Below, in pieces: positions 1,814 to 64,000 of a stretch of 64,000 bases of DNA (the stretch's first letter is position 1; every line of letters begins with the position of its first letter). The stretch lies in IMG/VR virus record IMGVR_UViG_3300045988_105372, positions 51,462-115,461 of that record; one strand, 5' to 3'. The translations under genes were made by a program, and so were the position numbers. A model generated the notes under the pieces. The model saw only the letters and a program-made list of their open reading frames with translations, made no database searches and had not been told where the DNA came from. This stretch comes from a virus.

Positions 1814-1873
1814 CTGTATTATGATTTAGTTAAGATGACTATATATAGATTTGTACAAGAAGCAAATAAATTT

Positions 1874-3779: not shown

Positions 3780-4043
3780 TTAAAAATCAACTAATTTAAA
3801 ACTATCGGCGTAATTACTAGCTATTACGTTTCTTAGTAAAGCTAATAAATTTTCGTTTCGTTTGTAACTACAGTTTATAGTAATATCATCTAAGTATACC
3901 CACTCATTATTATCATCGTCATATCCAATAAATCCTATTGGTTTATTACCTTTGTATGCTAAGATAATACCTTCAGTATTTGTATCTATAGCAGAGATGT
4001 CTATAGATTTATCGGATGTTTCTGGAAGTCTTATGTCCTTCAT
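3780..4043 (-). CDS. hypothetical protein (87 aa), tandem paralog of 3492..3776
   Basis: ORF track; paralogy visible by eye. Confidence 0.5.
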   Translation of the reverse strand: MKDIRLPETSDKSIDISAIDTNTEGIILAYKGNKPIGFIGYDDDNNEWVYLDDITINCSYKRNENLLALLRNVIASNYADSFKLVDF

Positions 4044-14183: not shown

Positions 14184-14261
14184 ACAGTAATTCGGATAAT
14201 TAAAAGTCTTCCATACTGTAATTAAGTTAATCTCTTCTCAGAGCGATATTAATACATAGAT

Positions 14262-26370: not shown

Positions 26371-26740
26371 AAATTAAATAATAAGATTAAATAATTGGAG
26401 GCATGTATAATCTACAATACTGATTAGCATACCAAGTCCAACCCTTCTTAAATGCTTTTAAAGTTCTTTTTAAAATTTTCATCATAATAAATCAAATTTA
26501 AAGTTTAACTTATAAAATATCTAGGAGGAGAGTTTAAAAAATTAAGAATCCCAGGTAAATCACCCCTGTTAGAGACATGGTCTCTATTTTTATTATTTAG
26601 GATTCTATAGGAATGCAAAAAACCATCGAATCATTCCAGTTCGTAGGTTCTACGACACCTAATAGGCGAGTATGCATCGTTGAGAGGCACCCTATAAGTT
26701 ACGTTGCTCCTGTAACTAGTATTCTAGAGCTTTATCATAG

Positions 26741-26818
26741 TGTGAGATGTGGGAATCAAACCCACGCAAGCCTTCACATTGGAAGTGTGATGTGCGCCTT
26801 CAACTACACTAATCTCAC
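26741..26818 (-). tRNA. tRNA-Gly(UCC)
   Basis: manual cloverleaf: acceptor GTGAGAT/ATCTCAC, anticodon arm TCACA-CTTCCAA-TGTGA, T-arm GTGGG-TTTGATT-CCCAC. Confidence 0.6.
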
Positions 26819-26830
26819 ATTGTTTAATAG

Positions 26831-26904
26831 TGGAGCGTAGGAGATTCGAACTCCTAAGAATGCCTGCGTGCAAAGCAGGTGCTGACCATTTGAGCCGACG
26901 CCCC
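26831..26904 (-). tRNA. tRNA-Ala(UGC)
   Basis: acceptor GGGGCGT/ACGCTCC (G3:U70 present), anticodon arm CCTGC-TTTGCAC-GCAGG, T-arm TAGGAG-TTCGAAT-CTCCTA. Confidence 0.7.
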
Positions 26905-26914
26905 AAATTGGAGA

Positions 26915-27391
26915 TTACTCTCCAGTTAATTGTTTTATTTTAAGTTTAGCTTGTGTTAATTTATATATTAAATCAGATATAGTATTTTTATTATCTTTAA
27001 GCTGCTTTCTAAGACCTTTAATAGCTAATTTCATGCTATTAAAGTCTTTCAAATTATTTGCCATAGATTCTAATTCTCTAAAAGACTTAGTATCATCAAA
27101 TAAAGATATATTAACTTTAGCTCTTAACTCTCTAATTTTAAGATTCTGTTTCTCAATCTCATTTTCTAAAGACTGAATCTTATTATTTAAAGATTCTATA
27201 CCAAGTCCATTTTCTAATTCATCTATATAGGATTCTAATTCTCCGATTTTTTGTTCTAATCCAGCATAATGCTTTTTTCTTTCAGCATCATACTCTTTAA
27301 ACCTATTTATTTTGCTTTTTAAAACAGCTATAATAAAATCCTTTTTATCATAAAAGTTTGCGTCAGATTGATAATTAAAAGTTTTTTTCAT
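26915..27391 (-). CDS. coiled-coil protein (158 aa)
   Basis: ORF track; heptad-rich LE/IE sequence. Confidence 0.45.
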   Translation of the reverse strand: MKKTFNYQSDANFYDKKDFIIAVLKSKINRFKEYDAERKKHYAGLEQKIGELESYIDELENGLGIESLNNKIQSLENEIEKQNLKIRELRAKVNISLFDDTKSFRELESMANNLKDFNSMKLAIKGLRKQLKDNKNTISDLIYKLTQAKLKIKQLTGE

Positions 27392-27413
27392 ATTATTTAT
27401 TTTTTTTAATTAG

Positions 27414-27485
27414 TTGTGGGTATTGGACTCGAACCAATGACCGTTTGCTTATGAGACAAACAAGCTACCACTGCTACAACCCACG
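27414..27485 (-). tRNA. tRNA-Met(CAU) (C1:A72 mismatch)
   Basis: anticodon arm TTTGT-CTCATAA-GCAAA, T-arm ATTGG-TTCGAGT-CCAAT. Confidence 0.6.
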
Positions 27486-27494
27486 ATATTAAAG

Positions 27495-27566
27495 AGCTTC
27501 AAGTAGGATTTGAACCTACGACCCGCACTTTACAAGAATGCTGCACTACCACTGTGCTATTGAAGC
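27495..27566 (-). tRNA. tRNA-Thr(UGU)
   Basis: acceptor GCTTCAA/TTGAAGC, anticodon loop CTTGTAA, T-arm GTAGG-TTCAAAT-CCTAC. Confidence 0.65.
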
Positions 27567-27712
27567 TTAAATAAAGGCGAATATGGCATTAGACGGGCGA
27601 ACTATCGTGACCATATTCTAATAATACATTGAGCTATCAGGCATACTCGTGGATCGCCACCGCTACCTCTAACAACCGCCTAGTTAAATGCTAGGTCCTC
27701 TCCATTATTTGC

Positions 27713-27788
27713 GGAATATAAGGGACTCGAACCCTTAGTTTTACTAGAGTGACAGTCTAGTTCCCTTACCAACAGGGCTTAATACTCC
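27713..27788 (-). tRNA. tRNA-Asp(GUC)
   Basis: anticodon arm CTAGA-CTGTCAC-TCTAG, T-arm AAGGG-TTCGAGT-CCCTT, acceptor GGAGTAT/ATATTCC. Confidence 0.65.
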
Positions 27789-27799
27789 ATGTGTCTTTG

Positions 27800-27880
27800 C
27801 GCCTAGACTAGGATTCGAACCTAGGAACCTTTCGGGGCAAGTTAACAGCTTGCTGCCGTTGACCACTTGGCTATCTAGAC
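27800..27880 (-). tRNA. tRNA-Asn(GUU) with unusually long (11-nt, CCCGAAAGG mini-hairpin) variable region
   Basis: anticodon arm GCAAG-CTGTTAA-CTTGC, T-arm CTAGG-TTCGAAT-CCTAG, acceptor GTCTAGA/TCTAGGC. Confidence 0.5.
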
Positions 27881-34182: not shown

Positions 34183-34300
34183 AGTGGAGCATTGGAGAGT
34201 CGAACTCCAGTCTTGCATATTTGCATCAAAACGTTCTTACAGCATAGGTTTTAAAGACTATCCTTGTCTGTTAGGGTTGACAAGATTAGCATTGCCAACT
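34183..34300 (-). ncRNA. tRNA-like element: perfect T-arm TGGAG-TTCGACT-CTCCA and 3' acceptor-like ATGCTCCA but no canonical D/anticodon arms
   Basis: manual inspection; lies in 650-nt non-coding region. Confidence 0.25.
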
Positions 34301-34646
34301 TCCACCACTCTGTTCCTAAAGTATACAGAGAACTAATAAAGAAATAAAAGAATAATGCACCTTTCCGTTCCCAAGCAAGTGCTGCTCGGTTTCTTAGGCT
34401 GCAATAGCGTAAGAAACAGGAGTCATATTGATAACTCTAGCGATTATTGTTTTGTTGTCTCTCCAACTGTCTTGCTGTGTTTCTTATCTCCTATACAATC
34501 AAAACCACGAATGCCCCAATTTAAAAGAGTCCTAAGTTAGAACTCTTTTATAAATTAGTGTCTACCACGTAAATAATTGTAATTATTATACCAATCATCT
34601 GGATCTATTCTATCTTCATTATCCATAATTTAAAACTTAATTAATG

Positions 34647-45210: not shown

Positions 45211-45420
45211 TTATTTAATTAATTTATAATCACCAACTTCAAATCCTTCTTCAATAGAACTTAAAGTCCAATCCTCATCCCAGTTATCTACATCATAAGG
45301 ACATATTAATTCAATTTTAGCATAATTAGATGCTCTATCTAATTCCAAAATTTTATAATATAAATAACTCACTTTAGTGAAATTAAATACATCACCCACT
45401 TTTAACTTTATTTTTTCCAT
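45211..45420 (-). CDS. hypothetical protein (69 aa)
   Basis: ORF track. Confidence 0.35.
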   Translation of the reverse strand: MEKIKLKVGDVFNFTKVSYLYYKILELDRASNYAKIELICPYDVDNWDEDWTLSSIEEGFEVGDYKLIK

Positions 45421-45441
45421 ATGTTAATGTGTTATTTAATT

Positions 45442-45483
45442 AAACAAAAAAAGAGCCTAACTAGATTAACTAATTAGACTCTT
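45442..45483 (-). terminator. rho-independent terminator closing the tRNA array (AAGAGCCTAA...TTAGACTCTT + U7)
   Basis: 10-bp stem (1 mismatch), A-run 45442-45451 on plus. Confidence 0.45.
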
Positions 45484-45513
45484 TAAAATAGAATAATATA
45501 ATAAAAGAAATAG

Positions 45514-45589
45514 TGCTCAGAGTGGGGCTTGAACCCACATGTGACCATTACCGTTTCTACTGTGTATAAGACAGAGCGGATATCCGAGC
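45514..45589 (-). tRNA. non-canonical tRNA-like gene (76 nt): good acceptor GCTCGGA/TCTGAGC and T-arm GTGGG-TTCAAGC-CCCAC, but no normal D-arm; internal hairpin CTGT-CTTATAC-ACAG (possible UAU anticodon)
   Basis: manual folding. Confidence 0.3.
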
Positions 45590-45598
45590 ATTTAAAAG

Positions 45599-45668
45599 AT
45601 GTGTCTGAGGGTCGTTAATCCTCTCCTTTCTCAGTCAAGAGAACGTTGCAACTTGCCACTAAGACACA
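45599..45668 (-). tRNA. non-canonical tRNA-like element adjacent to previous (acceptor TGTGTCT/AGACACA, 6-nt anticodon-like loop, atypical T-loop)
   Basis: manual folding; weak. Confidence 0.2.
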
Positions 45669-45797
45669 CTGTTTTTGAGTTTTTGTAAGTCCTCCGACTT
45701 ATTAAAGTTTTCGCACAATTTTGATAAGAGCTCTACTTTCACAAGCAAAACTCTTTTATTTTTAACAACTTATAAATTAAAATAATGATAGAAAAAG

Positions 45798-45869
45798 GAA
45801 ATGCGGACAGATTTGAACTGCCAATCTTCTACTCTACGATAGACGCTCTAGCTATTGAGCTACGCATTT
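45798..45869 (-). tRNA. tRNA-like gene with 4-bp anticodon stem and 8-nt loop UCGUAGAG (canonical acceptor AAATGCG/CGCATTT, D-arm GCTC/GAGC, T-arm GGCAG-TTCAAAT-CTGTC)
   Basis: manual folding. Confidence 0.4.
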
Positions 45870-45896
45870 CTATATATACTAGTATTGCTATATAGC

Positions 45897-45937
45897 CTTA
45901 TTTAAAAACTCATACTACTTTCGCAAGCAGTATGAGT
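45897..45937 (-). terminator. hairpin (9-bp stem ACTCATACT/AGTATGAGT, loop ACTTTCGCAAGC) followed by U-run in minus sense
   Basis: perfect 9-bp inverted repeat; loop shares TACTTTCRCAAGCA with hairpin at 45740-45770. Confidence 0.4.
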
Positions 45938-46013
45938 TAATGTGTAAGTCATTTTATTGACTTATCAACTCAACTACAAGAAATTCATCAATTTTCACAA
46001 ATTAATAATTAAT

Positions 46014-46093
46014 ATGTCGCTTAGACGGGATTCGAACCCGTAAGACCATTCCTGGTCAAGGGATTTTCCTACTACACTTGCTTTTATACAAGC
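46014..46093 (-). tRNA. tRNA-like gene with canonical T-arm ACGGG-TTCGAAT-CCCGT but aberrant D/anticodon region (loop TTGACCA)
   Basis: manual folding. Confidence 0.3.
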
Positions 46094-46096
46094 TAA

Positions 46097-46201
46097 CTTA
46101 AATAAAGGGATTCGAACCCTTAATCCTCAAGAGATATTTAATGACGACTTTAGAGGCGCTTCCGTCAATCTGCTGCCGTATACCAATTCCGCCATATTTA
46201 A
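46097..46201 (-). tRNA. 105-nt tRNA-like gene (acceptor TTAAATA/TATTTAA, T-arm AAGGG-TTCGAAT-CCCTT) with ~30 extra nt in the body (contains CUCUAAAG)
   Basis: manual folding. Confidence 0.3.
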
Positions 46202-46694
46202 GTTATTGTAGTCTGGACTATTTTATTACCTTATCAATTAACTTCGAAGTAAGGAATTAGGTTTTACCTCTCTCAATGAGCGTCTCCTTTTTTACATAAT
46301 GCATTATTATTATAACCTTATTACTAAGGATGAAGTCTAAACCATTCCTTTTAATTAACTTAGGTATCTCCTCTATAGTCTCTACACATTTATGCTGTAA
46401 CACTCCAATTTACATTTAAGATAGATTAGCGTTCTATCACAATTTAGCTCGTCACCACCAAAACCTATGTTACCATAAGTGAGGCTTCTGTCGCAAGTTA
46501 ATTAGATTTCTGAATACTGCTTCTATAATCATTACTCTGCTTCTTACACAGATGCTAACCTTTTTACAATTAGTAATTAACTTGTTTAATTAGGGAGATT
46601 CTACTTCTATTATTTCTAATAGAGCACTCAAATTCACCATTACTGGTGTTCCAAAAGTCCCTCGTGTATCCCAGTTTCACCACTAAGCGATAAA

Positions 46695-46726
46695 GCAACT
46701 AATTATCTGCTAGTTGCCAACAATAT
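46695..46726 (-). repeat. 32-nt repeat GCAACTAATTATCTGCTAGTTGCCAACAATAT (hairpin GCAACTA/TAGTTGC); second copy at 49157-49188
   Basis: identical by eye in both copies; precedes tRNA-Arg at 49 kb and a degenerate tRNA-Gln-like remnant here. Confidence 0.7.
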
Positions 46727-46757
46727 TTATTTTATAAATCCTATAACTATTATGGTA

Positions 46758-47117
46758 TTACAGTTGTTTTAACATATTTGTAGCTACATATAATGAAATA
46801 TCCACAGTTGTATGAATATCATCATTTAATTTTAAGATATATGTATTATTTTCATCATTCTTTCTAGTTATCTCAGATATGTATTTATGATTTATTAAAA
46901 ATCCTTGTGTTGCAAGAATAAAATTAATACATAAAACACGTGAAATATTTTTTAATGAACAACACACAATAATACTATTGCCATGAACATCTATTATAGT
47001 ACTATATTTACCAGATGTTTTTATACATACAATGTCATTTATGTTTATTTGTCTGTACTCTCGTCCCTTAAACACTAAAAATGTATCAGAGTCAATCTGT
47101 ATTGTTTTTATTTCCAT
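46758..47117 (-). CDS. hypothetical protein (119 aa)
   Basis: ORF track. Confidence 0.45.
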   Translation of the reverse strand: MEIKTIQIDSDTFLVFKGREYRQININDIVCIKTSGKYSTIIDVHGNSIIVCCSLKNISRVLCINFILATQGFLINHKYISEITRKNDENNTYILKLNDDIHTTVDISLYVATNMLKQL

Positions 47118-47122
47118 ATCTC

Positions 47123-47512
47123 TTAACCCATAATAAAACGAGCATCTACAATATTTTCAGGATGATGAATAGTTTTAGTTAATCCTATCATCGCCCATTT
47201 CACAATATCAGAATGTTTAACTCCACTTTTAAGTTCATGGTAAAACATTAAATCATAAGCTTCTCCACTTTTAAAAGTTACTTTGATTTTAAATGTAGGC
47301 TTTTCATCATTTCTAATAAGTTCGTCCATTTCTTCATCAGTTACCATGTAACTGAACAGAGGATTAGAAAGATGTTCTTTTTTGTACCTCTTTTCAAGTT
47401 CAGCTAAATTTAACTTTGCACACTTGAGTACATGTTTACAACCAAATTTCTTAGCACTTTCTATTTGTGCTATTAAATTGGTTTTACTAATAAAATAATC
47501 TTGTCTTGTCAT
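47123..47512 (-). CDS. hypothetical protein (129 aa)
   Basis: ORF track. Confidence 0.45.
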   Translation of the reverse strand: MTRQDYFISKTNLIAQIESAKKFGCKHVLKCAKLNLAELEKRYKKEHLSNPLFSYMVTDEEMDELIRNDEKPTFKIKVTFKSGEAYDLMFYHELKSGVKHSDIVKWAMIGLTKTIHHPENIVDARFIMG

Positions 47513-47703
47513 AATTTATCTATAATTAATGTGTTAATAATCTATTTAAATAATAGGCGATTTTCACTGGTTATATTTAAACTATTCCATTGTCCTCAGC
47601 TATCTAACGTTCTTTCTCTTTTTAACCCAAATGATTAATTTTAAGGTAATTACGCTATTTAATAGAGTCGCTGAGAGTTGTTTAGTACCTATTTATTAAT
47701 TAG

Positions 47704-47776
47704 TAGAGGATGACAGAGTTGAACTGCCTATTAGGGAGTCAAAGTCCCTCGTGTGAAACCGTTACACTAATCCTCC
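47704..47776 (-). tRNA. tRNA-Gln(UUG)
   Basis: acceptor GGAGGAT/ATCCTCT, anticodon arm AGGGA-CTTTGAC-TCCCT, T-arm GGCAG-TTCAACT-CTGTC. Confidence 0.65.
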
Positions 47777-47826
47777 GAATAAAATACTATTCTCACGAAC
47801 CATATTTTATATTACAAGTATGAATA

Positions 47827-47917
47827 AAGCGGAGAAAGAAGGATTCGAACCTTCGAGCCATGTAATATGACTAACACCTTAGCAGGGTGCCACTTTCGAC
47901 CACTCAGTCATTTCTCC
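47827..47917 (-). tRNA. tRNA-Ser(GCU), type II with long variable arm
   Basis: acceptor GGAGAAA/TTTCTCC, anticodon arm GCACC-CTGCTAA-GGTGT, variable arm ~18 nt, T-arm GAAGG-TTCGAAT-CCTTC. Confidence 0.7.
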
Positions 47918-47922
47918 AATAA

Positions 47923-47950
47923 AGCTTCCTATCTTCACAGACAAGAAGCC
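47923..47950 (-). promoter_or_regulatory. hairpin with conserved loop CTATCTTCACAGAC (family 1) immediately 5' of tRNA-Ser
   Basis: stem GCTTC/GAAGC; loop identical to 48115-48128. Confidence 0.5.
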
Positions 47951-48029
47951 TAACAACTCTTTAACGTTATAAAGTCCGCTGACTTTATATTTTAAACATT
48001 AATCGTATTAGTTTTTTAAATATGGAAGA

Positions 48030-48103
48030 GTAGCACTAGCGATGCTCGAAATCGCCTTTGGATCTTGAAAGAATCCCGTCCTAACCAGCTAGACGATAGT
48101 GCC
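48030..48103 (-). tRNA. tRNA-Glu(UUC)
   Basis: anticodon arm GGATT-CTTTCAA-GATCC, T-arm GCGAT-TTCGAGC-ATCGC, acceptor GGCACTA/TAGTGCT. Confidence 0.65.
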
Positions 48104-48108
48104 AAGTA

Positions 48109-48136
48109 GATTCTCTATCTTCACAGACTGAGAATC
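48109..48136 (-). promoter_or_regulatory. hairpin with conserved loop CTATCTTCACAGAC (family 1) immediately 5' of tRNA-Glu; different stem (GATTCTC/GAGAATC)
   Basis: loop identical to 47929-47942; stems not homologous but complementary. Confidence 0.5.
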
Positions 48137-48178
48137 TCGTGTATTACAAATGAATACTTTTAATAAATTAAAAATTAA

Positions 48179-48252
48179 TGGTGCTCCCTGACAGTACTGA
48201 CCTGTCTTCCCGAAATTAAAAGTTTCGTGCTTCACCTTAAAGCTTAGAGAGC
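48179..48252 (-). tRNA. tRNA-Lys(UUU), CCA encoded, atypical T-loop GUCAGUA
   Basis: acceptor GCTCTCT/AGGGAGC-A-CCA, D-arm GCTT/AAGC, anticodon arm CGAAA-CTTTTAA-TTTCG. Confidence 0.55.
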
Positions 48253-48296
48253 TAATTTATAATCTTATTTTGCATAGAATTTTATTCTTGTATATA

Positions 48297-48371
48297 GTGG
48301 AGATACGTGGAATCGAACCACAATCTCGGGATTTTCAGTCCCGCGCTCTGACCTTCTGAGCTATATCTCCA
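48297..48371 (-). tRNA. tRNA-Phe(GAA)
   Basis: acceptor GGAGATA/TATCTCC, D-arm GCTC/GAGC, anticodon arm CGGGA-CTGAAAA-TCCCG, T-arm TGTGG-TTCGATT-CCACG. Confidence 0.75.
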
Positions 48372-48478
48372 TAGCCCACATTTCTATAAAGGAGAATAGT
48401 GGTAACACCTACCTATACTAATAAATTTATTAGTCAGGATTTATCCAAACACACTAACAATATATCAAATTAAATTTG

Positions 48479-48561
48479 TACGGTAGAAAGGATTCGAACC
48501 AATGACCTTCTCGAAATGACCTATTATAAAAGAGATGCTCTAACCACTGAGCTACTACCGT
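48479..48561 (-). tRNA. tRNA-like gene (83 nt) with canonical acceptor/D-arm but anticodon stem TCTC/GAGA enclosing 19 nt (contains direct repeat AGGTCATT x2)
   Basis: manual folding; T-arm region ATTGGTTCGAATCCTTT identical to 48992..49072. Confidence 0.4.
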
Positions 48562-48616
48562 AAGTACTAGTTTATATCGGAAAACTAGTAAAACGTTAAC
48601 ACATTATTATGGAAAC

Positions 48617-48967
48617 TTAAAAGCCAAATGAAAACATGGTATTTGCGGAAGTACTAAGAGTTACATAAGGAATTTTATTTCTTACTGTAATAAAGACAAT
48701 AAAGCGTCTTCCTGTATTAACCTCTCCACAATTATGGATTTCTACTCCATCTTTCATTTCAGAAGAGTATATTTTTAATACCATTTTACCAAACTTACTA
48801 TTATTAAAAGTAATAGTTTTTCTAGCTTCATTATATACTACTGAAGTTTTAATGTAAAATGGGTCACTCCATTCACCATCTTGATAAACAGTGATAGAAC
48901 CATAATTAAACGCATGAGCTATTGTAGTTAATACAATAAAACTCATTAATAAAATAATCTTTTTCAT
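48617..48967 (-). CDS. secreted protein with signal peptide (start trimmed to MKKIILLMSFIVLTTIAHA)
   Basis: ORF track 48617..49015; upstream 16 codons would overlap tRNA-like gene. Confidence 0.45.
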   Translation of the reverse strand: MKKIILLMSFIVLTTIAHAFNYGSITVYQDGEWSDPFYIKTSVVYNEARKTITFNNSKFGKMVLKIYSSEMKDGVEIHNCGEVNTGRRFIVFITVRNKIPYVTLSTSANTMFSFGF

Positions 48968-48991
48968 ATTACTCAATCTTTTTAATGTTAG

Positions 48992-49072
48992 TACGGAGTA
49001 AAGGATTCGAACCAATATAACCTCTCTATGAATTGTGGAAATGAGGTGCTCTAGCCATTAAGCTAACTCCGT
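48992..49072 (-). tRNA. tRNA-like gene (81 nt) with anticodon stem ACCTC/GAGGT enclosing 20 nt; paralog of 48479..48561
   Basis: manual folding. Confidence 0.4.
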
Positions 49073-49077
49073 ATATG

Positions 49078-49152
49078 TGGTCCTAATGCGGCTCGAACGC
49101 ATAACATCGAATTTAGAAGATTCGTACTCTAATCCAGTTGAGTTATAGGACC
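49078..49152 (-). tRNA. tRNA-Arg(UCU)
   Basis: acceptor GGTCCTA/TAGGACC, D-arm ACTC/GAGT, anticodon arm CGAAT-CTTCTAA-ATTCG, T-arm ATGCG-TTCGAGC-CGCAT. Confidence 0.75.
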
Positions 49153-49156
49153 AAGT

Positions 49157-49188
49157 GCAACTAATTATCTGCTAGTTGCCAACAATAT
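49157..49188 (-). repeat. second copy of 32-nt hairpin repeat GCAACTAATTATCTGCTAGTTGCCAACAATAT, 4 nt upstream of tRNA-Arg 5' end
   Basis: identical to 46695-46726. Confidence 0.7.
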
Positions 49189-49205
49189 ATATGAACTTTA
49201 CAGAA

Positions 49206-49469
49206 TTACTCTATTATTTCAGTTTCAGATATACACCATTTACCATTAATTTTAACGGCTTCTACCTGTTTATTATTTACTGTCTCAAGAGATACTTTAT
49301 TTTCTAAAGTTCTATTGAACGAAATAATGTATTTGTTAGCCTCTTCTTTAGAATTGACTACACGAGACTGAATGCTATTGTTAATAACATTATATATCTT
49401 TCTTAAAACTTTCATAATTATAATTTTTATAAAGTTAATAGTATATAGAGCATTGTTTCTCAACAACAC
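49206..49469 (-). CDS. hypothetical protein (87 aa)
   Basis: ORF track. Confidence 0.4.
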   Translation of the reverse strand: MLLRNNALYTINFIKIIIMKVLRKIYNVINNSIQSRVVNSKEEANKYIISFNRTLENKVSLETVNNKQVEAVKINGKWCISETEIIE

Positions 49470-54747: not shown

Positions 54748-55236
54748 ATTGTTAATGTGTTAAATTTATATTCATAGATACCTAATAACGTACAACTGTT
54801 ACTAGGTATTTCGTCCAGCCTCATCAGTATGAATTTTATAGTCTCCTGGTTGACTAAACAATTTCTCTTACTCCTTGTTTAAGGGAAGCCTCTCTTTTAG
54901 CACCGAGGTTATCGCTTTAATAAATAATGTAGAGTCCTTCAACACTTACTATCCCCTCCACTAATTGTCTTTACGCTTTCTTACTTCTAAAGTCTTTTTA
55001 ATACTTTACCAGTAATACTTTCAATGTGTTACGACGTGCTAAATACTGCCTGTACAAACCTATAAAAGGATAAACATCCGTTCTACTATTTAGCTATATA
55101 CTAGGATGATTTTTCAACTTAATTTAAAACATATTAGATAGGAACAGGTTTTACACAATACCCTGTATTACTTTCCGACTGTAGTACGGCAACCTATAGC
55201 TAGATATATCCTAGCCAGATTTTTTAGATTAAACAC

Positions 55237-59465: not shown

Positions 59466-60602
59466 TTATTTTATATATAAAAAATTTCCTCCGCCCGTAT
59501 TTTGAGCATCATATTTTAGTAAGTCATCTCTAGTAAATATTTTATCAAAAGTTCTTAATCCTGAATGATAAGTACCATTATCTAAAGTATATAAATCTAC
59601 TGTTTTAACATTGTTTCTAGATTTCATAGCTTCTATCTCATCTCTAATATTATCTATACTTCCGGAAACTAAACGAACTTCTTTACCCGCCTATATAATT
59701 ATTCTTCCTCCAGCTATAGAACCATATTCATCAGTTCTATTATTATTAGCTAAAAAATTTAGTCTGTTATTTACAGATTTACCATTTACTATAGCATTTA
59801 ATATAGGACTTTTTCTAGAACCATTAGAATTACTTTCCATGAATAATACATTATCTTTAGAATCTGTTTTAAAACCAGTAACTGTATTTTTAAATGTTGG
59901 AGAAATCATACTTCCATTAGGAATATCTGAATATTTACCAAAAACAAATTTACCAATAGAATCTATACCTATATAATTCTAATTATTAGGAGATATGCTT
60001 TCTTTAGATTTGAAATTAGAAAAAGCAGTAATAGGAGCTGCTACACTATTTATAGGAGTATAATCACCTCTATTTCTATAACCAAAAGTATGCTTTGTTA
60101 AATTTATGGATTCTGGTATACGATATCTTCTAGAGTTTATTTTAGTAGTATCATTTATAGTATAACTATTTGGAGATATTTCTATTTCTAAATTTTCTCT
60201 CCTCTTATTTTTAGTTACTTTTTTATTAGAAATTTTAATTCTTTTACTAGTATGCTCAGGTTCTGAATCAAAAAATAACTATAGTTTTCTACTTAATCCA
60301 TTTCCTACTAAATTAATCAACTATTTACCACGTTCCCACATTGTTTCTTCTTTCTATTTAGAAGTAGATATTTTTTTAGCAGTGGGCATTTCTTTATATT
60401 TTGCAGGATGGTATACTAAGGTAGATGTTGGTTTAGTAGGATCTACTCCTTTAGCCTAAACCTATGGAAATATTATACTATTAGCTTTATCAGAATTAAT
60501 TTTAAAAGGGACTTTATTTGATTTTCTTCTACCATACAACTACCCATCTTCATACCAATAATCATATATTGAATCATTGTTAGTAATTACCTATACAGCC
60601 AT
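59466..60602 (-). CDS. late-region protein (378 aa) with 10 in-frame TAG codons; function unknown (virion-type gene block)
   Basis: manual translation: frame open for 379 codons with no TAA/TGA in ~72% AT DNA; ends ...NTGGGNFLYIK-TAA. Confidence 0.5.
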
Positions 60603-61723
60603 GGTGTTCTTACTATTACTGGAGTTCCTAACTTATCTAATATTTTTAATCCTAATACAGCTTTACTGTCTAAATCATATGAACTCCATTTCTACTTATA
60701 TTCATCAGGATTAAACTTCCAAATATCTTGTGCTCTATATACTTTCTTACCATTAGATGTTCCTTCCTAAACTAAATGTCCAGCAGCATCAACTCCATTA
60801 TCTCCAAAGTCTAGATTATTATTAGCACCTTTCCAAGGAGTTTTATTAGTTATATTAGAAGCTTTCTACATAGATTTCTTAGTAAAGAAATCTAAAGTTT
60901 CAGTATTTTCATATACAGGAATATCTTTATATGGATATATCTTTCTTATATAATTCTCATGTGGACCATAATCTACATTTATTTTCTTTACTCCATAAGA
61001 AGGATTTATAGTTTTATTATATAAATAAGCATCAATCATATCATTACCTTTAGCTGCTTTCTAAAATCCAGTATATGCTTCAGGAGCATAGGTATTGTAA
61101 CCTACACCAGTTGATATATAAGACAATACTCCAGCATGCTTTTTAGGACTTGCCTTATGCATATTATATACTATGTCTTCTATAGGATTCGCATTATTAG
61201 AAGTTCTCATAGCTACTTCTACTCCACGTTTTAAAGGAGCTTTTACAGCATATCCTATTGCAGGAAGCATTACTAAATAATTACTAGCTTTAGTTGGATT
61301 CTTAGATATATCTAAAGCACCTTTAGTATAATCATATACTGCCTAAGCGGCTGGAGCTAAAGCATAACCTATTCCTGAATTAACTAATGCTTTAATAGGA
61401 CTAGTATTATTATTCCAACTATCTACTTCTCTAGCATAAGCTCCTTTTATAGGATGGGTTCTATTCTTATTACTATAATTATATAATTTAGAATGAGTAT
61501 GTCCTACCTATTTTATAGTCCCTCTATTATCTACAAATACATCTTGTACCCCATTTAAAGTTCTAACGGGAATAACTCTCTACTAATATTTAGCACCAAG
61601 ATATGAAGATTTAAATCTAGGATGATTTAGTCTATTATAATATTCCATATCTATAGCCATCTATTTATTCCGAGTATTATTATTTACTCCTTTATTTTGT
61701 TTACTCTCATCTACTATTGGCAT
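60587..61723 (-). CDS. late-region protein (378 aa) with 9 in-frame TAG codons; contains VGHTHS patch
   Basis: manual translation from ATG 61721-61723 to TAA 60587-60589; track fragment 61061..61270 is an internal piece. Confidence 0.5.
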
Positions 61724-61937
61724 ATTTATACTTTATTTTTCCATATACTAGTTATACTATCAATTCCTAGTAATCCCATACAACAATATAAAACTGTATC
61801 TATCATATCAGGAGCTTGTATCTAACTAATAGAACAGTATATTAGAATAATTAAACTTACTATCCATCCTAATATTCCACACACTCTTTTACTACTTATT
61901 CCAGTATGTGCTGTTATTAATTTAATTAAAAACTATT

Positions 61938-63308
61938 TCATTTCTAAGAATTATTTAAGAACGGTAAACTCATACCTATAGGTGCTGCTATTCTGAGTGC
62001 ATTAGAATCTAACTCAGGAATAGTTAATCGAGAATCTCGTAATATATTTCCAGTTATTCCTTTAAGAGGTATTCTATTTCTTTTCATATTAAGTGGAATT
62101 AAAAAATCCTCATTTATTTCATACTCAATATTAGGATCATTACCTATTATATTAGAAGCTTTATACTAGTTAAGCTACGTTTTTGGTATATCTATATACT
62201 ATAATTCTATAGAATTGTCAACTCCTTCTTTTATAGCTTTTCTTCGAGTATTAGAAGCATATATTAATGTTTTTCTTGGGTTATCAGTAAACCACATTCC
62301 TGTATATTTAGCTGTTCCATCCGGAGATGGAGTAAATTTACCATTAGTACCAGAAGCTCTATATAATCTTACCATACCCTAATCTAATTTAGGTTTCTAA
62401 AATATTCCTACTTCAATAGGTTCTTTAGTTCCCTTCATAGTAAGTTGTCTAGTTCCATTCTAGATAAATCCAAAGTCTTTACCAAATCTATTTATACCAT
62501 GAATACCTCCTTTAGATATAGAACCCCAAGTAGAGAGATTAGCACCTTCAGGTACTTCATCTGCTACCTTAGCAAATAGCTACATTTTATTACCATAACT
62601 TAGACCATTTCTATCTGTTTTAAAATGAACTGAATAATTATTAGGTTCAATATCCTTTACTAGTTCAAATCTTTGATTAGGCTATTGTTTAAAGAAATAA
62701 GAAGTAGCTTCATTTCCTTCAGCTTTTCCAGTACTCCAAGCCTTTCTAGTAGGTTTATAATAAGATAACTGCATAATAGGATTATCTCCTGTTGTATATT
62801 CTTTAGCAGCTAAGTTATTAGTAATTCCTTGAGATACATTTTTAGTTAAATTTCCAGCAGTTTCATTAAGTAAACTATTTCTTGCCCAATGTGAAACGGC
62901 ATTCTAACCCATTTTAGAAAGAGCTATTTTGCCTAAACTCAATCCTAAATTTCCTGCAGCAGTTCCTACTATAAATTCTCCTACTGGATCAGCTCCTGAC
63001 ATAGCCCCTGCTTGAGGATTAGTACTAGTTTTAGTATTTCCCTACTAATCCTTTACTGTAACTACCTCACTATGAGGCACACTCCTCTTAGCTAAAGCTA
63101 TCCTCTCTTTAATTGGTAGATTATTATATTTAGCTTTTAAATTTTTAGCAACAGGCTATAATCTATTTTTTAAATTAGTAGGATTAAGAATTCCCGTAGA
63201 TTGAGCGTTTCTAGTTATTTCCTAATCCTACTTAGATTGTTGCCACGGTAATCCAGTGGTTTTAAAATTTAATTTACCTGCTTTCTAATATTTAGGTATC
63301 CATTTCAT
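61938..63308 (-). CDS. late-region protein (456 aa) with ~17 in-frame TAG codons
   Basis: manual translation from ATG 63306-63308 (MKWIPKY[TAG]KAGKLNFK...) to TGA 61938-61940. Confidence 0.5.
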
Positions 63309-64000
63309 ATCTCTTTAAATATTTATTCCATAACTATCGATCTCTTTCATCTACAAAATTTAGAAATTCTTGTAATTCATTCAATTGTATATTTATATCT
63401 TTCATTTCTTTAGATATATTTTATATTGATCATAAGGATTATCTATATATCTCTATGTAGGAGTCACTGTAATTTCAGGCAGTACAACTCCGCCTTTATA
63501 AATCATAGTAGTCTAACCATCCTAATTACCATCTGCAGTTCCAAATAATGTAAGATTTGGATTTTGCATTCCGAAATCAGTTAAATAAAATTTGATTCCT
63601 GATTTATTAAATTTGCCCCTAGAAGGGTGTGTAGGATGATTACTTAATTTTACATTATCAAGATAATGTTCTCTAGAATTAGGAGTTAACTAAGACAATA
63701 ACTTATTATTAACGTTATTATAATTTCCATTCCCATATTTTACCTAATTAGGAAATTCCCAAATTATATTAGCTAGAGCTCCTGTAGTAAAACTTCCACC
63801 CTACTATAACTACTATGGAGTAGGCAAAACTTTACCTTTTTGATATTTAGGAACTAATTTAAGCATTTCTAAATTTATTTATATATTTTGCAACATTAGT
63901 GCCATTAGCATCAGCGCCTCCTGCAATACCATACTTATAATAATTTTTAGTCCATTTTGGATTTAACCATGATGCTGCTATAGCTTCTCCAGTAGCTGCT
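63292..64000 (-). CDS. late-region protein, 3' end only (continues beyond window), TAG-containing; stop TAA overlaps next start
   Basis: manual translation ...LQEFLNFVDERDR[TAG]LWNKYLKRYEMDT-TAA. Confidence 0.4.

What the first reader, a model, noticed from the sequence alone, without database searches (positions are those of the whole stretch)
45514..49072. Family of non-canonical tRNA-like genes with enlarged or irregular anticodon arms interleaved with normal tRNAs
The 45.5-49.2 kb array also encodes clean tRNAs (Gln, Ser, Glu, Lys, Phe, Arg). At least seven further genes have perfect acceptor stems and TTCGAAT-type T-arms but aberrant middles. Two paralogs (48479..48561 and 48992..49072) have identical T-arms (ATTGGTTCGAATCCTTT) and anticodon stems (TCTC/GAGA; ACCTC/GAGGT) that enclose 19-20 nt instead of 7; one of them contains a direct repeat AGGTCATT x2. 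One gene has a 4-bp stem with an 8-nt loop UCGUAGAG. One is 105 nt long and contains CUCUAAAG. Two (45514-45668) lack a recognisable D-arm. Bacteria lack a tRNA-splicing endonuclease, so these are short self-processed insertions, 8-nt-loop (frameshift or alternative) decoders, decoys, or regulatory tRNA-like RNAs.
Basis: seen in the sequence. Interest (0 to 1): 0.65.

Follow-up and report, generated by a model that had tools for sequence, protein, structure and literature searches.

The report
Phage operon of remodelled tRNA look-alikes
A gut-phage tRNA operon mixes six ordinary tRNAs with one tRNA split by a self-splicing intron, one probably working tRNA with a re-wired core, and five conserved tRNA-shaped RNAs that lack a usable anticodon loop, so these five are probably tRNA mimics and not unusual decoders.

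Summary
All genes lie on the minus strand of 45.5-49.2 kb.

The "family" is four different things:
1. The "105-nt tRNA" (46201-46097) sits in the intron's P9a loop. It belongs to a widespread phage family whose anticodon region is a covariation-supported pseudoknot. CUCUAAAG is part of that pseudoknot, not an anticodon loop.
2. X1 and X2 are paralogs with a 4-bp stem, a 17-20-nt loop and two U·U mismatches in the T stem. Phage crAss001's "tRNA-OTHER" is the same type.
3. E and F keep the acceptor end but swap anticodon arms. Loops are 5-8 nt, mostly 6.
4. G is a likely tRNA-Ile(UAU) with a normal 7-nt loop and a re-wired D domain.

Compensatory changes argue against pseudogenes. Variable loop lengths argue against frameshift decoders and against short spliced introns.

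Best reading: X1, X2, D, E and F are non-decoding tRNA mimics, cut out like tRNAs. Their function is inferred, not shown. Lak-phage "enigmatic tRNA introns" were reported in 2019. I found no published description of these families.

The parts
49077..49152 (-). Canonical tRNA-Arg(UCU), first gene of the array. It is preceded by the hairpin GGCAACTAGCAGATAATTAGTTGC (49180-49157).
   Evidence: ARAGORN. Rfam RF00005 59.5 bits.
48992..49072 (-). X1: a tRNA-shaped RNA. It has the acceptor ACGGAGU/ACUCCGU and a normal D arm. A 4-5-bp stem (A)CCUC/GAGG(U) encloses the 18-nt loop AUUUCCACAAUUCAUAGA. The T arm AUUGG-UUCGAAU-CCUUU has U.U mismatches at 50-64 and 51-63.
   Evidence: Rfam 47.4 bits with an 11-nt insert in the loop. 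With its intron option, ARAGORN calls it 'Stop(tta)' with an 11-nt intron. Variants in relatives change the would-be U33, and 6 of 18 loop positions differ in L023.
48617..48967 (-). 116-aa ORF with an N-terminal signal-peptide-like segment, flanked by the paralogs X1 and X2.
   Evidence: ORF list. No Pfam or PHROG family. The X1-ORF-X2 order is kept in all relatives.
48479..48561 (-). X2: paralog of X1. Acceptor ACGGUAG/CUACCGU. The 4-bp stem UCUC/GAGA encloses the 19-nt loop UUUUAUAAUAGGUCAUUUC. It has the same T arm as X1 and the direct repeat AGGUCAUU x2.
   Evidence: Rfam 54.3 bits. The loop is 17, 19 or 20 nt in relatives, and one relative lost 14 nt between the repeats. The closest outside relative is the crAss001 'tRNA-OTHER'.
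48298..48370 (-). Canonical tRNA-Phe(GAA).
   Evidence: 72.9 bits.
48179..48252 (-). tRNA-Lys(UUU): a clean cloverleaf with a normal CUUUUAA loop, an unusual T loop GUCAGUA, and an encoded CCA.
   Evidence: Read from the sequence. MFE fold is a cloverleaf, z = -2.5. ARAGORN finds it only with -ps80 or -mt.
48031..48103 (-). Canonical tRNA-Glu(UUC).
47830..47917 (-). Canonical class II tRNA-Ser(GCU).
47704..47776 (-). Canonical tRNA-Gln(UUG).
46655..46689 (-). 5' exon of tRNA-Leu(UAA): CGCUUAGUGGUGAAACUGGGAUACACGAGGGACUU, ending at U34.
   Evidence: ARAGORN -i finds the split gene at 46016-46689. The intronless homolog in L009/L010 reads ...GAGGGACUUAAAAUCCCU.... The joined exons give ARAGORN tRNA-Leu(taa), 86 nt.
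46068..46654 (-). 587-nt group I intron. The guide sequence AAUUU-GAGU (46634-46626) pairs with the exon end ACUU, with U.G at the splice site. P7 is AGACUAU (about 46383-46375) with AUAGUC (46221-46215). P9 ACUACA/UGUAGU encloses P9a and P9b. The terminal G is at 46068.
   Evidence: Alignment with the same intron in Lak-B1. The core matches introns in crAss-like primase genes at 76%. Absent from 9 syntenic relatives. Rfam RF00028 does not reach E <= 5 here, but it hits a sister intron in the same Lak-B1 tRNA at 46.6 bits.
46097..46201 (-). D: a 105-nt tRNA-shaped module in the intron's P9a loop. Its acceptor stem UUAAAUA/UAUUUAA continues the P9a stem. It has a Leu-like D arm, and an H-type pseudoknot replaces the anticodon and variable arms (GACGG/UCGUC and CCUC/GAGG).
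   Evidence: Rfam tRNA 33 bits. Exactly this segment is absent from the Lak-B1 intron. The family was collected from 49 and 57 IMG/VR stretches (two overlapping pattern searches) plus crAss-like cr60_1. On 30 sequences, 97.5% of cells pair against 77.9% when shuffled, and 15 pairs show changes on both sides.
46017..46067 (-). 3' exon of tRNA-Leu(UAA): AAAAUCCCU, a long variable arm, T arm ACGGG-UUCGAAU-CCCGU, CUAAGCG and discriminator A.
45798..45869 (-). E: a tRNA-shaped RNA with acceptor AAAUGCG/CGCAUUU and T arm GGCAG-UUCAAAU-CUGUC. The anticodon arm is UCUAU-CGUAGA-GUAGA (5 bp with a 6-nt loop, or 4 bp with 8 nt). The D loop has no GG.
   Evidence: Rfam 49.5 bits. ARAGORN reports a 2-nt 'anticodon'. 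In 23 variants the stem is paired in 106 of 115 cells, with 2-4 pair types per position. Loops are 5 nt in 3 variants, 6 nt in 17, 7 nt in 1 and 8 nt in 2.
45600..45668 (-). F: a tRNA-like hairpin cluster directly upstream of G. The closing stem is UGUGUCU/AGACACA. The arm is UUCUC-UUGACU-GAGAA. A T-like arm GAGG-AUUAACGAC-CCUC has a 9-nt loop. There is no canonical D arm.
   Evidence: The arm is replaced with full compensation in relatives (CCCUG-CUAGCAAU-UAGGG, CUCUG-CUAGCAAG-UAGAG). Not found by Rfam or ARAGORN.
45514..45589 (-). G: a probable tRNA-Ile(UAU) with a re-wired D domain. Acceptor GCUCGGA/UCUGAGC with A73. A 3-bp helix CCG/CGG closes over the anticodon arm. The 7-nt loop is CUUAUAC. 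A GG-containing strand UAAUGGUCACAU comes next, followed by T arm GUGGG-UUCAAGC-CCCAC.
   Evidence: Four homologs plus a GAU paralog show full compensation in the acceptor, T stem, 3-bp helix and anticodon stem. A canonical tRNA-Ile(UAU) occupies the same slot in L001.

Best explanation
The segment is a minus-strand tRNA operon of a gut phage that recodes TAG and is related to crAss-like and Lak phages. Besides six ordinary tRNAs it carries three kinds of unusual gene.

(a) tRNA-Leu(UAA) is interrupted between U34 and A35 by a 587-nt group I intron and matures by self-splicing. A tRNA-shaped module, D, rides in the intron's P9a loop.

(b) Two tRNAs are structurally re-wired but probably still decode. 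G is an Ile(UAU) tRNA whose short D helix closes over the anticodon arm. Lys(UUU) has an odd T loop.

(c) Five RNAs (X1, X2, D, E, F) are tRNA-shaped but do not decode. They keep the acceptor stem and a T or T-like arm, which is the part that RNase P, RNase Z and the CCA-adding enzyme read; X1, X2 and D also keep the D/T-loop elbow. Their anticodon arm is rebuilt into something else:
- a pseudoknot in D;
- a 4-bp stem with a 17-20-nt loop in X1 and X2;
- a normal stem with a 5-8-nt loop that changes quickly in E and F.

Proposed mechanism for (c), inferred and not shown: they are transcribed with the array and cut out like tRNAs. They then persist as stable tRNA mimics that act in trans through the rebuilt arm. 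They would act as decoys, sponges or regulators for a tRNA-binding host or phage factor, for example anticodon nucleases or tRNA-modifying enzymes. They are kept off the ribosome. In X1 and X2 the two U.U mismatches lie in the T-stem pairs that set EF-Tu affinity.
For: Shown
- Group I intron: ARAGORN -i finds the split gene. The joined exons give a clean 86-nt tRNA-Leu(taa). Intronless homologs fix the junction. Guide-sequence pairing with U.G, the terminal G and P7 are read from the sequence. The same intron occurs in Lak-B1, and its core matches primase-gene introns of crAss-like phages.
- D: exactly this segment is missing from the Lak-B1 intron. In the family, all 7 acceptor pairs and 4 of 5 T-stem pairs change on both sides. 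Both pseudoknot helices show compensatory doubles. Paired cells are 97.5% against 77.9% when shuffled and 38-58% when the partner is slid.
- X1/X2: three compensatory pairs in the acceptor stem and one in the anticodon stem separate the two paralogs. Loop length is polymorphic, and positions that would be U33 or the anticodon vary.
- crAss001-type relatives: the arm is a helix of about 10 bp with two compensatory pairs under a conserved 13-16-nt loop.
- E: 23 variants have a paired stem with 2-4 pair types per position, and 22 of 23 loops are not 7 nt.
- G: full compensation in four helices, a 7-nt loop with U33 and A37, and a canonical Ile(UAU) at the same slot in a relative.
- TAG recoding of ORFs at 59.4-63.3 kb.

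Inferred
- RNase P/Z release, EF-Tu avoidance and a decoy role. These rest on established knowledge of tRNA processing and of T-stem pairs 49-65, 50-64 and 51-63 as the tuners of EF-Tu affinity.
Against: - There are no expression, processing or binding data.
- Thermodynamic z-scores of the single sequences are unremarkable, from -0.7 to -2.0 for X1, X2 and E and +0.2 for D.
- Half of the intron-borne D copies in relatives carry deletions or a mismatch, so the window's D may be a passenger and not a working gene.
- The fast turnover of the E and F arms also fits relaxed constraint on that arm.
- Apparent conservation of the E acceptor and T arm, and of the D core, is partly forced by the search patterns used.
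- 27 ORFs of the window were scanned and none is a tRNA-binding partner, RNA ligase or nuclease.
- The five 'mimics' need not share one function.
Confidence: 0.45

Rival explanations
1. Processing or 'punctuation' elements acting in cis. Only the acceptor/T-arm half matters. The tRNA-shaped elements are there so that RNase P and RNase Z cut the long operon transcript at set points and leave structured, protected ends. This would release the ORFs embedded in the array: the 116-aa ORF between X1 and X2, and the two ORFs (129 aa and the 119-aa LytTR protein) that lie between tRNA-Gln and tRNA-Leu. The anticodon arm is then free to drift.
For: - X1 and X2 flank the small ORF in every relative.
- The crAss001-type element sits 30 nt upstream of a small ORF.
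- Acceptor and T arms are conserved while the anticodon loops of X1, X2, E and F vary in length and sequence.
- One X2 copy lost 14 nt of its loop region.
Against: - Ordinary tRNAs in the same array would serve equally well as cut sites.
- In D and in the crAss001-type family the rebuilt anticodon domain is the most conserved part.
- E lies between two terminator-like hairpins and is not next to an ORF.
- The arms of E and F are replaced wholesale yet stay perfectly paired, which is more than drift predicts.
Confidence: 0.2
2. Decaying tRNA genes and recombination scars. The array is a hypervariable cassette region, and the odd genes are pseudogenes on their way out.
For: - Cassettes are swapped between relatives that are 91-98% identical. 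Different Arg, Leu, Ile/Met and Trp genes occupy the same slots.
- Some copies are damaged: X1 in L008 lacks half its D arm, X2 in L013 lost 14 nt, and intron-borne D copies carry deletions.
- The crAss001 homolog is annotated as a pseudogene in GenBank.
Against: - Compensatory double substitutions keep every stem paired: D 97.5% of cells, the E anticodon stem 106 of 115, all helices of G, and the X1 versus X2 acceptor stems.
- The D family spans different phage families and keeps an invariant core.
- The large loop is shared by the paralogs X1 and X2 and by crAss001-type phages, so it is old and has been maintained.
Confidence: 0.15
3. Intron-containing tRNAs. The 9-18 extra nucleotides in the loops of X1, X2 and the crAss001 type are removed by a so far unknown phage or bacterial pathway, giving decoders. 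X1 would become a UUA ochre suppressor and the crAss001 type an Ile(GAU/AAU) tRNA.
For: - ARAGORN -i turns X1 into a 71-nt cloverleaf with anticodon UUA after removing 11 nt.
- The extended helix of the crAss001 type resembles an anticodon-intron helix.
- Lak phages have 79-114-nt 'enigmatic' tRNA introns (PMC6784885).
- Suppressor tRNAs are undetected in 60% of TAG-recoded phages.
Against: - There is no bulge-helix-bulge motif. The internal loop is symmetric and not staggered.
- The would-be exonic loop changes length between relatives: one extra base pair in the crAss001-type e-g variants, and 17, 19 or 20 nt in X2.
- The would-be U33 is C in half of the X1 variants, and the L023 loop differs at 6 of 18 positions.
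- A TAG-recoding phage needs CUA, not UUA.
- No ligase or endonuclease was found among the 27 ORFs scanned.
Confidence: 0.08
4. Non-standard decoders. The 8-nt loops would read four-base codons (+1 frameshift), the 6-nt loops two bases, or the 4-bp anticodon stems would allow 'superwobble' reading of stop codons.
For: - In the window E can be drawn as 4 bp with an 8-nt loop.
- ARAGORN reports 4-base 'anticodons' in L008 and L013.
- Some E variants (L100, L101) can be drawn as a 4-bp stem with the loop AUGUAAU, a Tyr GUA anticodon.
- tRNAs with 4-bp anticodon stems are known in bacteria (PMC13092985).
- Zeta-group crAss-like genomes are reported to contain frameshifted genes (PMC7886860).
Against: - Loop length (5, 6, 7 or 8 nt) and loop sequence differ between phages whose other genes are nearly identical. 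A decoder would not tolerate that.
- U33 is missing in the window's E (C33).
- The L097 variant closes the loop with C-G, which gives 6 nt.
- The D loop of the window's E has no GG.
Confidence: 0.05

Closest known systems
Group I intron in tRNA-Leu(UAA) of cyanobacteria and plastids, and other bacterial tRNA group I introns (for example Azoarcus tRNA-Ile, Patescibacteria)
   Same: Same host tRNA and same insertion point (U34|A35). U.G pair at the 5' splice site, a terminal G, and a P7/P3/P8 core. No ORF is encoded.
   Different: - It lies in a phage tRNA gene.
- It is 587 nt long, with large P8 and P9 insertions.
- It is not detected by Rfam RF00028 at E <= 5.
- It is present or absent among close relatives.
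- It carries a tRNA-shaped RNA module in P9a, where mobile introns usually carry a homing-endonuclease ORF.
'Enigmatic introns' of Lak megaphage tRNAs (Devoto et al. 2019, PMC6784885)
   Same: Gut phages that share sequence with this window. Their tRNA genes have insertions in the anticodon loop, and one insertion itself looks like a tRNA.
   Different: The Lak insertions are 79-114 nt and follow position 37. They are built as a 5' hairpin, then AUUAAAUUAAA, then a tRNA-like minihelix. Here the insertion is a true group I intron, and the other odd genes are free-standing tRNA-like RNAs. The tRNA-Leu introns of Lak-B are not among the tRNA introns listed in that paper.
Bacteroides phage crAss001 'tRNA-OTHER' pseudogene H3300_gt025 (NC_049977, 101478-101568)
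   Same: Same D arm (GCUCAGUGGUUAGAGC), same variable loop (RGGUC), and an enlarged 'anticodon' region of 25 nt. It shares the 3'-loop motif A-AGGU-NN-UU with X2.
   Different: Its arm is a helix of about 10 bp capped by a conserved 13-16-nt loop, its T stem is perfect and its discriminator is U. X1 and X2 have only a 4-bp stem and two U.U mismatches in the T stem.
Known tRNA mimics: the tRNA-like domain of tmRNA, the bacterial YrlA (Y RNA) tRNA-like module, tRNA-like structures of plant viruses, and mascRNA
   Same: They keep an acceptor/T-arm (and elbow) shape without a working anticodon, and are recognised by tRNA-processing enzymes. tmRNA and the viral structures also combine a tRNA shape with pseudoknots.
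   Different: D, X1, X2 and E are free-standing 70-105-nt genes with both ends in a 7-bp acceptor stem. In D the pseudoknot replaces the anticodon and variable arms. Apart from RF00005 (tRNA) itself, no Rfam family matches any of them at its gathering score.
Mitochondrial tRNAs without a D arm, and other natural non-canonical tRNAs (PMC7609411)
   Same: G has no conventional D stem-loop but keeps the acceptor stem, T arm and a canonical 7-nt anticodon loop.
   Different: G is phage-encoded. It keeps a 3-bp 'D' helix, but that helix encloses the anticodon arm, and a GG-containing strand is moved to the variable-region position.
Frameshift-suppressor tRNAs with 8-nt loops, and tRNAs with 4-bp anticodon stems (PMC13092985)
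   Same: E, X1 and X2 can be drawn with 4-bp anticodon stems. E can be drawn with an 8-nt loop.
   Different: Loop length and sequence are not conserved (5-8 nt in E, 17-20 nt in X2), and U33 is often missing. This does not fit a fixed decoding role.

Membership tests
Canonical tRNA (Rfam RF00005 cloverleaf) | 7-bp acceptor stem adjoining a 5-bp T stem with a 7-nt T loop (UUCRANY) | tested here: met
   Met for X1, X2, D, E and G. X1 and X2 have U.U at 50-64 and 51-63. F has a 4-bp stem and a 9-10-nt loop, so it does not meet this feature.
Canonical tRNA (Rfam RF00005 cloverleaf) | 5-bp anticodon stem with a 7-nt loop carrying U33 and a purine at 37 | tested here: not met
   X1 has an 18-nt loop and X2 a 19-nt loop (17-20 in relatives). 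E has 6 (or 8) nt, and 22 of 23 variants are not 7. D has a pseudoknot. F has 6 or 8 nt. The feature is met only by G (CUUAUAC), Lys, and Leu after splicing.
Canonical tRNA (Rfam RF00005 cloverleaf) | D stem-loop with G18 G19 between the acceptor stem and the anticodon arm | tested here: inconclusive
   Present in X1, X2 and D. In E the stem is present but the loop AAUAGCUA has no GG in the window. Absent in F. Re-wired in G, where CCG/CGG closes over the anticodon arm and the GG strand follows it.
Group I intron | 5' splice site after a U that pairs with G of an internal guide sequence; 3' splice site after a terminal G | tested here: met
   Exon ...ACUU| pairs with GAGU (46629-46626). The intron ends ...GUAGUAGG|AAAA. 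The junction is fixed by the intronless homolog and by ARAGORN on the joined exons.
Group I intron | Conserved catalytic core (P3-P7-P8) recognised by the Rfam RF00028 covariance model | tested here: inconclusive
   No RF00028 match at E <= 5 in the window. P7 AGACUAU/AUAGUC and the P3'/P8 start GAGGAGAUACC are read by eye and align with Lak-B1. RF00028 scores 46.6 bits (E 1e-10, gathering 50) on a sister intron in the same Lak-B1 tRNA. The core also matches crAss-like primase-gene introns by blastn.
Group I intron | Self-splicing with a guanosine cofactor | not testable with these tools
   This needs an in vitro splicing assay.
Archaeal/eukaryal protein-spliced tRNA intron | Bulge-helix-bulge motif (two 3-nt bulges on opposite strands, 4 bp apart) at the exon-intron borders | tested here: not met
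   The X1 and X2 loops have no such helix. The consensus fold of the crAss001 type has a symmetric internal loop and no staggered bulges.
Frameshift-suppressor / quadruplet-decoding tRNA | A conserved 8-nt anticodon loop with U33 and a fixed 4-base anticodon | tested here: not met
   E loops are 5 nt (3 variants), 6 nt (17), 7 nt (1) and 8 nt (2), with 12 different sequences. The window has C at the U33 position.
Amber-suppressor tRNA (CUA) | CUA in the middle of a 7-nt loop closed by a 5-bp stem | tested here: not met
   In D the C/U/A before UAAAG pairs with G/A/U upstream of the T arm (C-G 24, U-A 3, A-U 1, U.G 1 of 30), with a coupled indel. No stem-loop of the form YU-CUA-R sits in a tRNA context anywhere in the window.
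Theta (minimal HDV-like) ribozyme next to a tRNA (PMC10879173) | HDV-like nested double pseudoknot whose cleavage site abuts the tRNA 3' end | tested here: not met
   No HDV-like match in 45300-49400 at E <= 5. In relatives a weak match (RF02682, 23 bits, E 0.09) starts 1 nt after the end of tRNA-Leu (L005 4907-4961).

The most novel reading that the evidence does not exclude
The short-loop elements E and F may be 'codon-display' tRNA mimics. All 12 distinct E loops and all 4 distinct F loops contain a stop triplet. In the window E shows UAG. Close relatives show UAA and UGA, and each substitution turns one stop triplet into another.

Such a loop could pair with the anticodon loop of a suppressor tRNA. 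It would then work as a sponge that sets the time at which this TAG-recoding phage switches genetic code.

Alternatively, the loops may mimic the anticodon loop of tRNA-Leu(UAA) and so decoy a host nuclease.

The statistics are suggestive only. The stop set is one of 2 of 41,664 three-triplet sets that cover all 12 E loops. There are only about 7 independent arms, and the loops are A/U-rich.
Probability: 0.07. Interest if true: 0.85.

Novelty: new variant of a known kind. Interest (0 to 1): 0.6.

Why it matters
- Phage tRNA genes are usually counted and interpreted as decoders, for codon supply, stop-codon recoding or rescue from anticodon nucleases. In this array about a third of the tRNA-like genes cannot decode, yet compensatory evolution maintains them.
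- At least one class, the pseudoknotted D family, is spread across crAss-like phages. There it often sits 9 nt upstream of the amber-suppressor tRNA.
- These RNAs are therefore candidate tRNA mimics in the most abundant human gut phages. The finding also gives concrete families for covariance-model searches.
- It shows a group I intron carrying an RNA module where mobile introns usually carry a protein gene.
- It adds a tRNA core without a conventional D arm, found outside mitochondria.
- It explains why annotation pipelines report 'undetermined', 'pseudo' or 'Stop' tRNAs in these genomes.
- crAss001 can be grown in culture and carries an X2-type gene, so the mimic hypothesis can be tested directly.

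Tried and rejected
- D as the missing amber suppressor. Rejected: its 'CUA' covaries with a partner strand, and crAss-like genomes have a genuine CUA tRNA next to D.
- Reading X2 as a class II tRNA with anticodon UUA and a long variable arm, as ARAGORN does in relatives. Rejected: the L010 variant breaks that variable stem and shortens the loop by 2 nt.
- Bulge-helix-bulge or ribozyme motifs in the large loops. None found.
- Rfam at E <= 5 over the whole array. Nothing turned up beyond tRNA hits and chance matches, and there was no group I hit in the window.
- Single-sequence folding energies. They are not informative, with z from +0.2 to -2.0 for the odd elements.
- A search for a partner enzyme. 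Pfam and PHROGs on 27 ORFs found replication proteins, NAMPT, a flotillin-like protein and a LytTR DNA-binding protein. No RNA ligase, endonuclease or tRNA enzyme appeared.
- The D core in 185,579 bacterial and archaeal genomes. There was a single hit, on a 99-kb contig that looks like a phage.
- A literature search for published descriptions of these families. None was found beyond Devoto 2019 and general remarks that phage suppressor tRNAs may be non-canonical.
- Alternative T-arm pairing in X1 and X2 (AGAGG or GAAGG with CCUUU, 5 of 5 pairs). Noted, but there is no variation to test it.
As a result, the recoded codon of relatives could not be compared with their E-loop triplets.

Full report
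**Context**

The window is phage DNA. Its closest record is an unannotated human-gut 'Bacteriophage sp.' contig, MT835539 (79% of the region covered, 91.7% identity). Short segments are 87-96% identical to Lak megaphages and crAss-like phages.

Eleven syntenic IMG/VR contigs of 94-186 kb were retrieved through a neighbouring protein. When TAG is read as sense, ORFs at 59.4-63.3 kb and 0.5-1.8 kb lengthen markedly. The phage therefore recodes TAG in part of its genes, as reported for Lak and many crAss-like phages (PMC6784885; PMC7886860). No tRNA with a CUA anticodon loop exists in the window.

**Check of the observation**

All genes of the 45.5-49.2 kb array are on the minus strand.

ARAGORN and Rfam call five ordinary tRNAs: Arg, Phe, Glu, Ser and Gln. 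Lys(UUU), 48252-48179, is a clean cloverleaf with T loop GUCAGUA and an encoded CCA. It is found only at a relaxed threshold.

| Element | Coordinates | Rfam tRNA bits (gathering 29) |
|---|---|---|
| X1 | 49072-48992 | 47.4 |
| X2 | 48561-48479 | 54.3 |
| D | 46201-46097 | 33.0 |
| E | 45869-45798 | 49.5 |
| F | 45668-45600 | not found |
| G | 45589-45514 | not found |

The stated stems, the shared T arm ATTGGTTCGAATCCTTT, the AGGTCATT repeat, UCGUAGAG and CUCUAAAG are all present.

**A group I intron that was missed**

The seventh 'aberrant' gene is the 3' exon of tRNA-Leu(UAA). The 5' exon (46689-46655) ends ...GAGGGACUU. The 3' exon (46067-46017) begins AAAAUCCCU.

- With its intron option ARAGORN finds the split class II tRNA with a 587-nt intron.
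- The joined exons give a clean 86-nt tRNA-Leu(taa).
- Relatives L009 and L010 carry the same tRNA uninterrupted (...GAGGGACUUAAAAUCCCU...). This fixes the junction between U34 and A35.
- The intron has a guide sequence AAUUU-GAGU that pairs with the exon end, with U.G at the splice site. It also has a terminal G, P7 AGACUAU/AUAGUC, and a P9 domain.
- It aligns with an intron at the same place in a Lak-B1 tRNA. Its core matches introns in crAss-like primase genes at 76%.
- Rfam's group I model does not reach E <= 5 in the window. It does score 46.6 bits on a second intron in the same Lak-B1 tRNA.
- Nine syntenic relatives have an intronless Leu.

**The 105-nt element D**

In the Lak-B1 alignment exactly 46198-46104 is missing, and a short hairpin stands in its place. 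D is therefore an insertion in the terminal loop of P9a. Its acceptor stem continues the P9a stem.

D also occurs as a free-standing gene. In relatives it lies downstream of an intronless Leu. In crAss-like phages such as cr60_1 it lies 9 nt upstream of a genuine CUA suppressor tRNA.

On a hand-made structural alignment of 30 distinct sequences:
- 97.5% of cells form standard pairs, against 77.9% in shuffles (0 of 500 reach the observed value) and 38-58% when partners are slid.
- All 7 acceptor pairs and 4 of 5 T-stem pairs change on both sides.
- Helix GACGG/UCGUC has compensatory doubles: GACAG/UUGUC, GAUGG/UCAUC and, outside that alignment, GGCGG/UCGCC.
- Helix (G)CC-N/N'-GG just 5' of the T arm shows C-G, U-A, A-U and U.G at one position, C-G to U-A at another, and a coupled insertion in both strands.

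The two helices interleave, so D has an H-type pseudoknot in place of the anticodon and variable arms. CUCUAAAG is part of that pseudoknot and not an anticodon loop.

Four of eight distinct intron-borne copies in relatives carry deletions or a mismatch. All free-standing copies are intact. The window's intact copy may therefore be a passenger.

The D core occurs once in 185,579 bacterial and archaeal genomes, on a phage-sized contig.

**X1 and X2**

They are paralogs. Their acceptor stems differ at three pairs with full compensation, and their anticodon stems at one. This argues against decay since the duplication.

Both have a 4-bp stem and a large loop. The loop is unstable:
- X2 has 17, 19 or 20 nt in relatives, and one copy lost 14 nt between the AGGTCATT repeats.
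- In X1 the position that would be U33 is C in half of the variants, and the L023 variant differs at 6 of 18 loop positions.

ARAGORN's intron mode makes X1 a 'Stop(tta)' tRNA after removing 11 nt. That variation does not fit a conserved decoder, and the phage needs CUA, not UUA.

The T stem has U.U at 50-64 and 51-63. From established work on EF-Tu, those pairs tune its affinity, so weak binding is inferred. The same T arm occurs in an unrelated family of environmental-phage tRNA-like genes with loops of 3-13 nt.

The nearest outside relative of X2 is the 'tRNA-OTHER' pseudogene of Bacteroides phage crAss001. In 12 variants of that type the arm is a helix of about 10 bp. It has two compensatory pairs and a conserved apical loop of 13-16 nt, GAUU..UUAAAGGUA. 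There is no bulge-helix-bulge motif.

**E and F**

Twenty-three distinct E sequences keep the acceptor and T arms. This conservation is partly forced by the search pattern. Their anticodon arms differ:
- The 5-bp stem is paired in 106 of 115 cells, with 2-4 pair types per position.
- The loop is 5 nt in 3 variants, 6 nt in 17, 7 nt in 1 and 8 nt in 2, with 12 different sequences.
- A relative closes the window-type loop with C-G, so the window's loop is best read as 6 nt, CGUAGA.

F always lies just upstream of the last tRNA slot. It has no D arm and a 9-10-nt 'T' loop. Its arm is replaced wholesale with full compensation, with loops of 6 or 8 nt.

These features exclude a fixed quadruplet or doublet decoder.

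**G**

Four homologs and a paralog share one architecture. In order:
- an acceptor stem;
- a 3-bp helix (CCG/CGG or AGA/UCU) that closes over the anticodon arm;
- a 4-bp anticodon stem above a constant U.U;
- a 7-nt loop with U33 and A37 (CUUAUAC for UAU, CUGAUAA for GAU);
- RGAAA;
- a GG-containing strand;
- the T arm and A73.

Every helix shows compensatory change. MT835539 has a canonical tRNA-Ile(UAU) in the same slot. G is therefore most likely a working tRNA-Ile(UAU) with an unconventional core.

**Interpretation**

Shown:
- the intron;
- the nesting of D in P9a;
- the pseudoknot in D;
- the non-7-nt and unstable loops of X1, X2, E and F;
- the compensatory maintenance of all stems.

Inferred:
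- X1, X2, D, E and F are released by RNase P and RNase Z as tRNA mimics.
- They act through the rebuilt arm as decoys or regulators.

Rivals are cis-acting processing elements, decaying genes, unknown splicing, and non-standard decoding. They are weighed in the rival section. No partner enzyme was found among the 27 ORFs scanned.

**Prior knowledge**

Devoto et al. 2019 reported 'enigmatic introns' in Lak tRNAs, one of which looks like a tRNA. Those are 79-114-nt insertions of a different build.

Borges et al. and the papers on the Zeta group of crAss-like phages suggest that missing suppressor tRNAs may be non-canonical.

I found no published description of the D, E, G or X/crAss001-type families. 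I also found no report of a group I intron in a phage tRNA-Leu. The literature search covers only the library that was available.

**An unexplained pattern**

Every distinct E loop and every distinct F loop contains a stop triplet. Substitutions between close relatives convert UAG to UAA or to UGA. With about 7 independent arms and A/U-rich loops this is only suggestive.

Noticed in passing
window 54772-54856 (-): RAGATH-1 hammerhead ribozyme, 75 bits against a gathering score of 56.3.
   Followed up: no
window 34184-34517 (-): Phage-encoded tmRNA with tag peptide ARVINMTPVSYAIAA. Rfam 48.9 bits (gathering 47); ARAGORN agrees.
   Followed up: no
window 26740-27880 (-): A second tRNA cluster (Gly, Ala, Met, Thr, Asp, Asn). 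Several genes are over-long: Asn is 82 nt with a 12-nt variable arm, Gly is 79 nt, and the Gly Rfam match is only partial (33.7 bits).
   Followed up: no
window 47524-47692: Non-coding stretch between tRNA-Gln and the 129-aa ORF. It is 94-96% identical to Lak-A/C megaphages and 87% identical to crAss-like cr124_1 and cr7_1, far above the similarity of the flanks. No Rfam match. It may be a conserved leader, a promoter or a non-coding RNA.
   Followed up: partly
window 49180-49157 and 46718-46695 (-): The same 24-nt hairpin GGCAACTAGCAGATAATTAGTTGC lies 4-5 nt upstream of tRNA-Arg and of tRNA-Leu. It is kept in all relatives even when the tRNA behind it is a different gene. This looks like a cassette boundary or a processing or promoter signal.
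   Followed up: partly
window 48136-48109 and 47949-47924 (-): Two hairpins with different stems share the loop GUCUGUGAAGAUAG. They lie 5-6 nt upstream of tRNA-Glu and tRNA-Ser.
   Followed up: no
window 45950-45905 and 45750-45715 (-): E is flanked by two terminator-like hairpins that share the loop motif UUGYGAAA (GCTTGCGAAAGTAG and GCTTGTGAAAGTAG).
   Followed up: no
window 59469-63314 and 473-1825 (-): ORFs lengthen to 381-458 aa only when TAG is read as sense, which indicates amber recoding of part of the genome. No CUA tRNA is present in the window.
   Followed up: partly
L005 4907-5110 (also L006, L011, L012): Directly after an intronless tRNA-Leu comes a theta-like (minimal HDV-like) ribozyme. 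Its match to RF02682 is 23 bits (E 0.09) and starts 1 nt after the tRNA end. A free-standing D follows. The whole insert is bracketed by a 10-nt direct repeat of the tRNA 3' end (GTCTGAGCTA). L008 and L013 show the empty site.
   Followed up: partly
L002 (Lak-B1, MK250020) 3950-4550: The Lak-B1 homolog of this tRNA carries two group I introns, one in the D-loop region (RF00028, 46.6 bits) and one at U34|A35. ARAGORN finds no tRNA there.
   Followed up: partly
L001 (MT835539) 5287-5377 and 6162-6247; also L009, L010, L012: Relatives carry a 91-nt tRNA-Trp(CCA) and an 86-nt tRNA-Arg(UCU), both with long variable arms. That is a class II shape on isotypes that are normally class I.
   Followed up: no
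window 46758-47117 (-): A 119-aa LytTR DNA-binding-domain protein (Pfam E 1e-7) is encoded inside the tRNA operon, next to a 129-aa ORF with no known family.
   Followed up: no
window 13575-15386 (-): An SNF2-type helicase ORF starts in the middle of the ResIII domain (profile positions 123-164 only). Reading TGA as sense fuses it with the upstream 203-aa ORF into 626 aa. This may be a split gene, an intron or a read-through.
   Followed up: no
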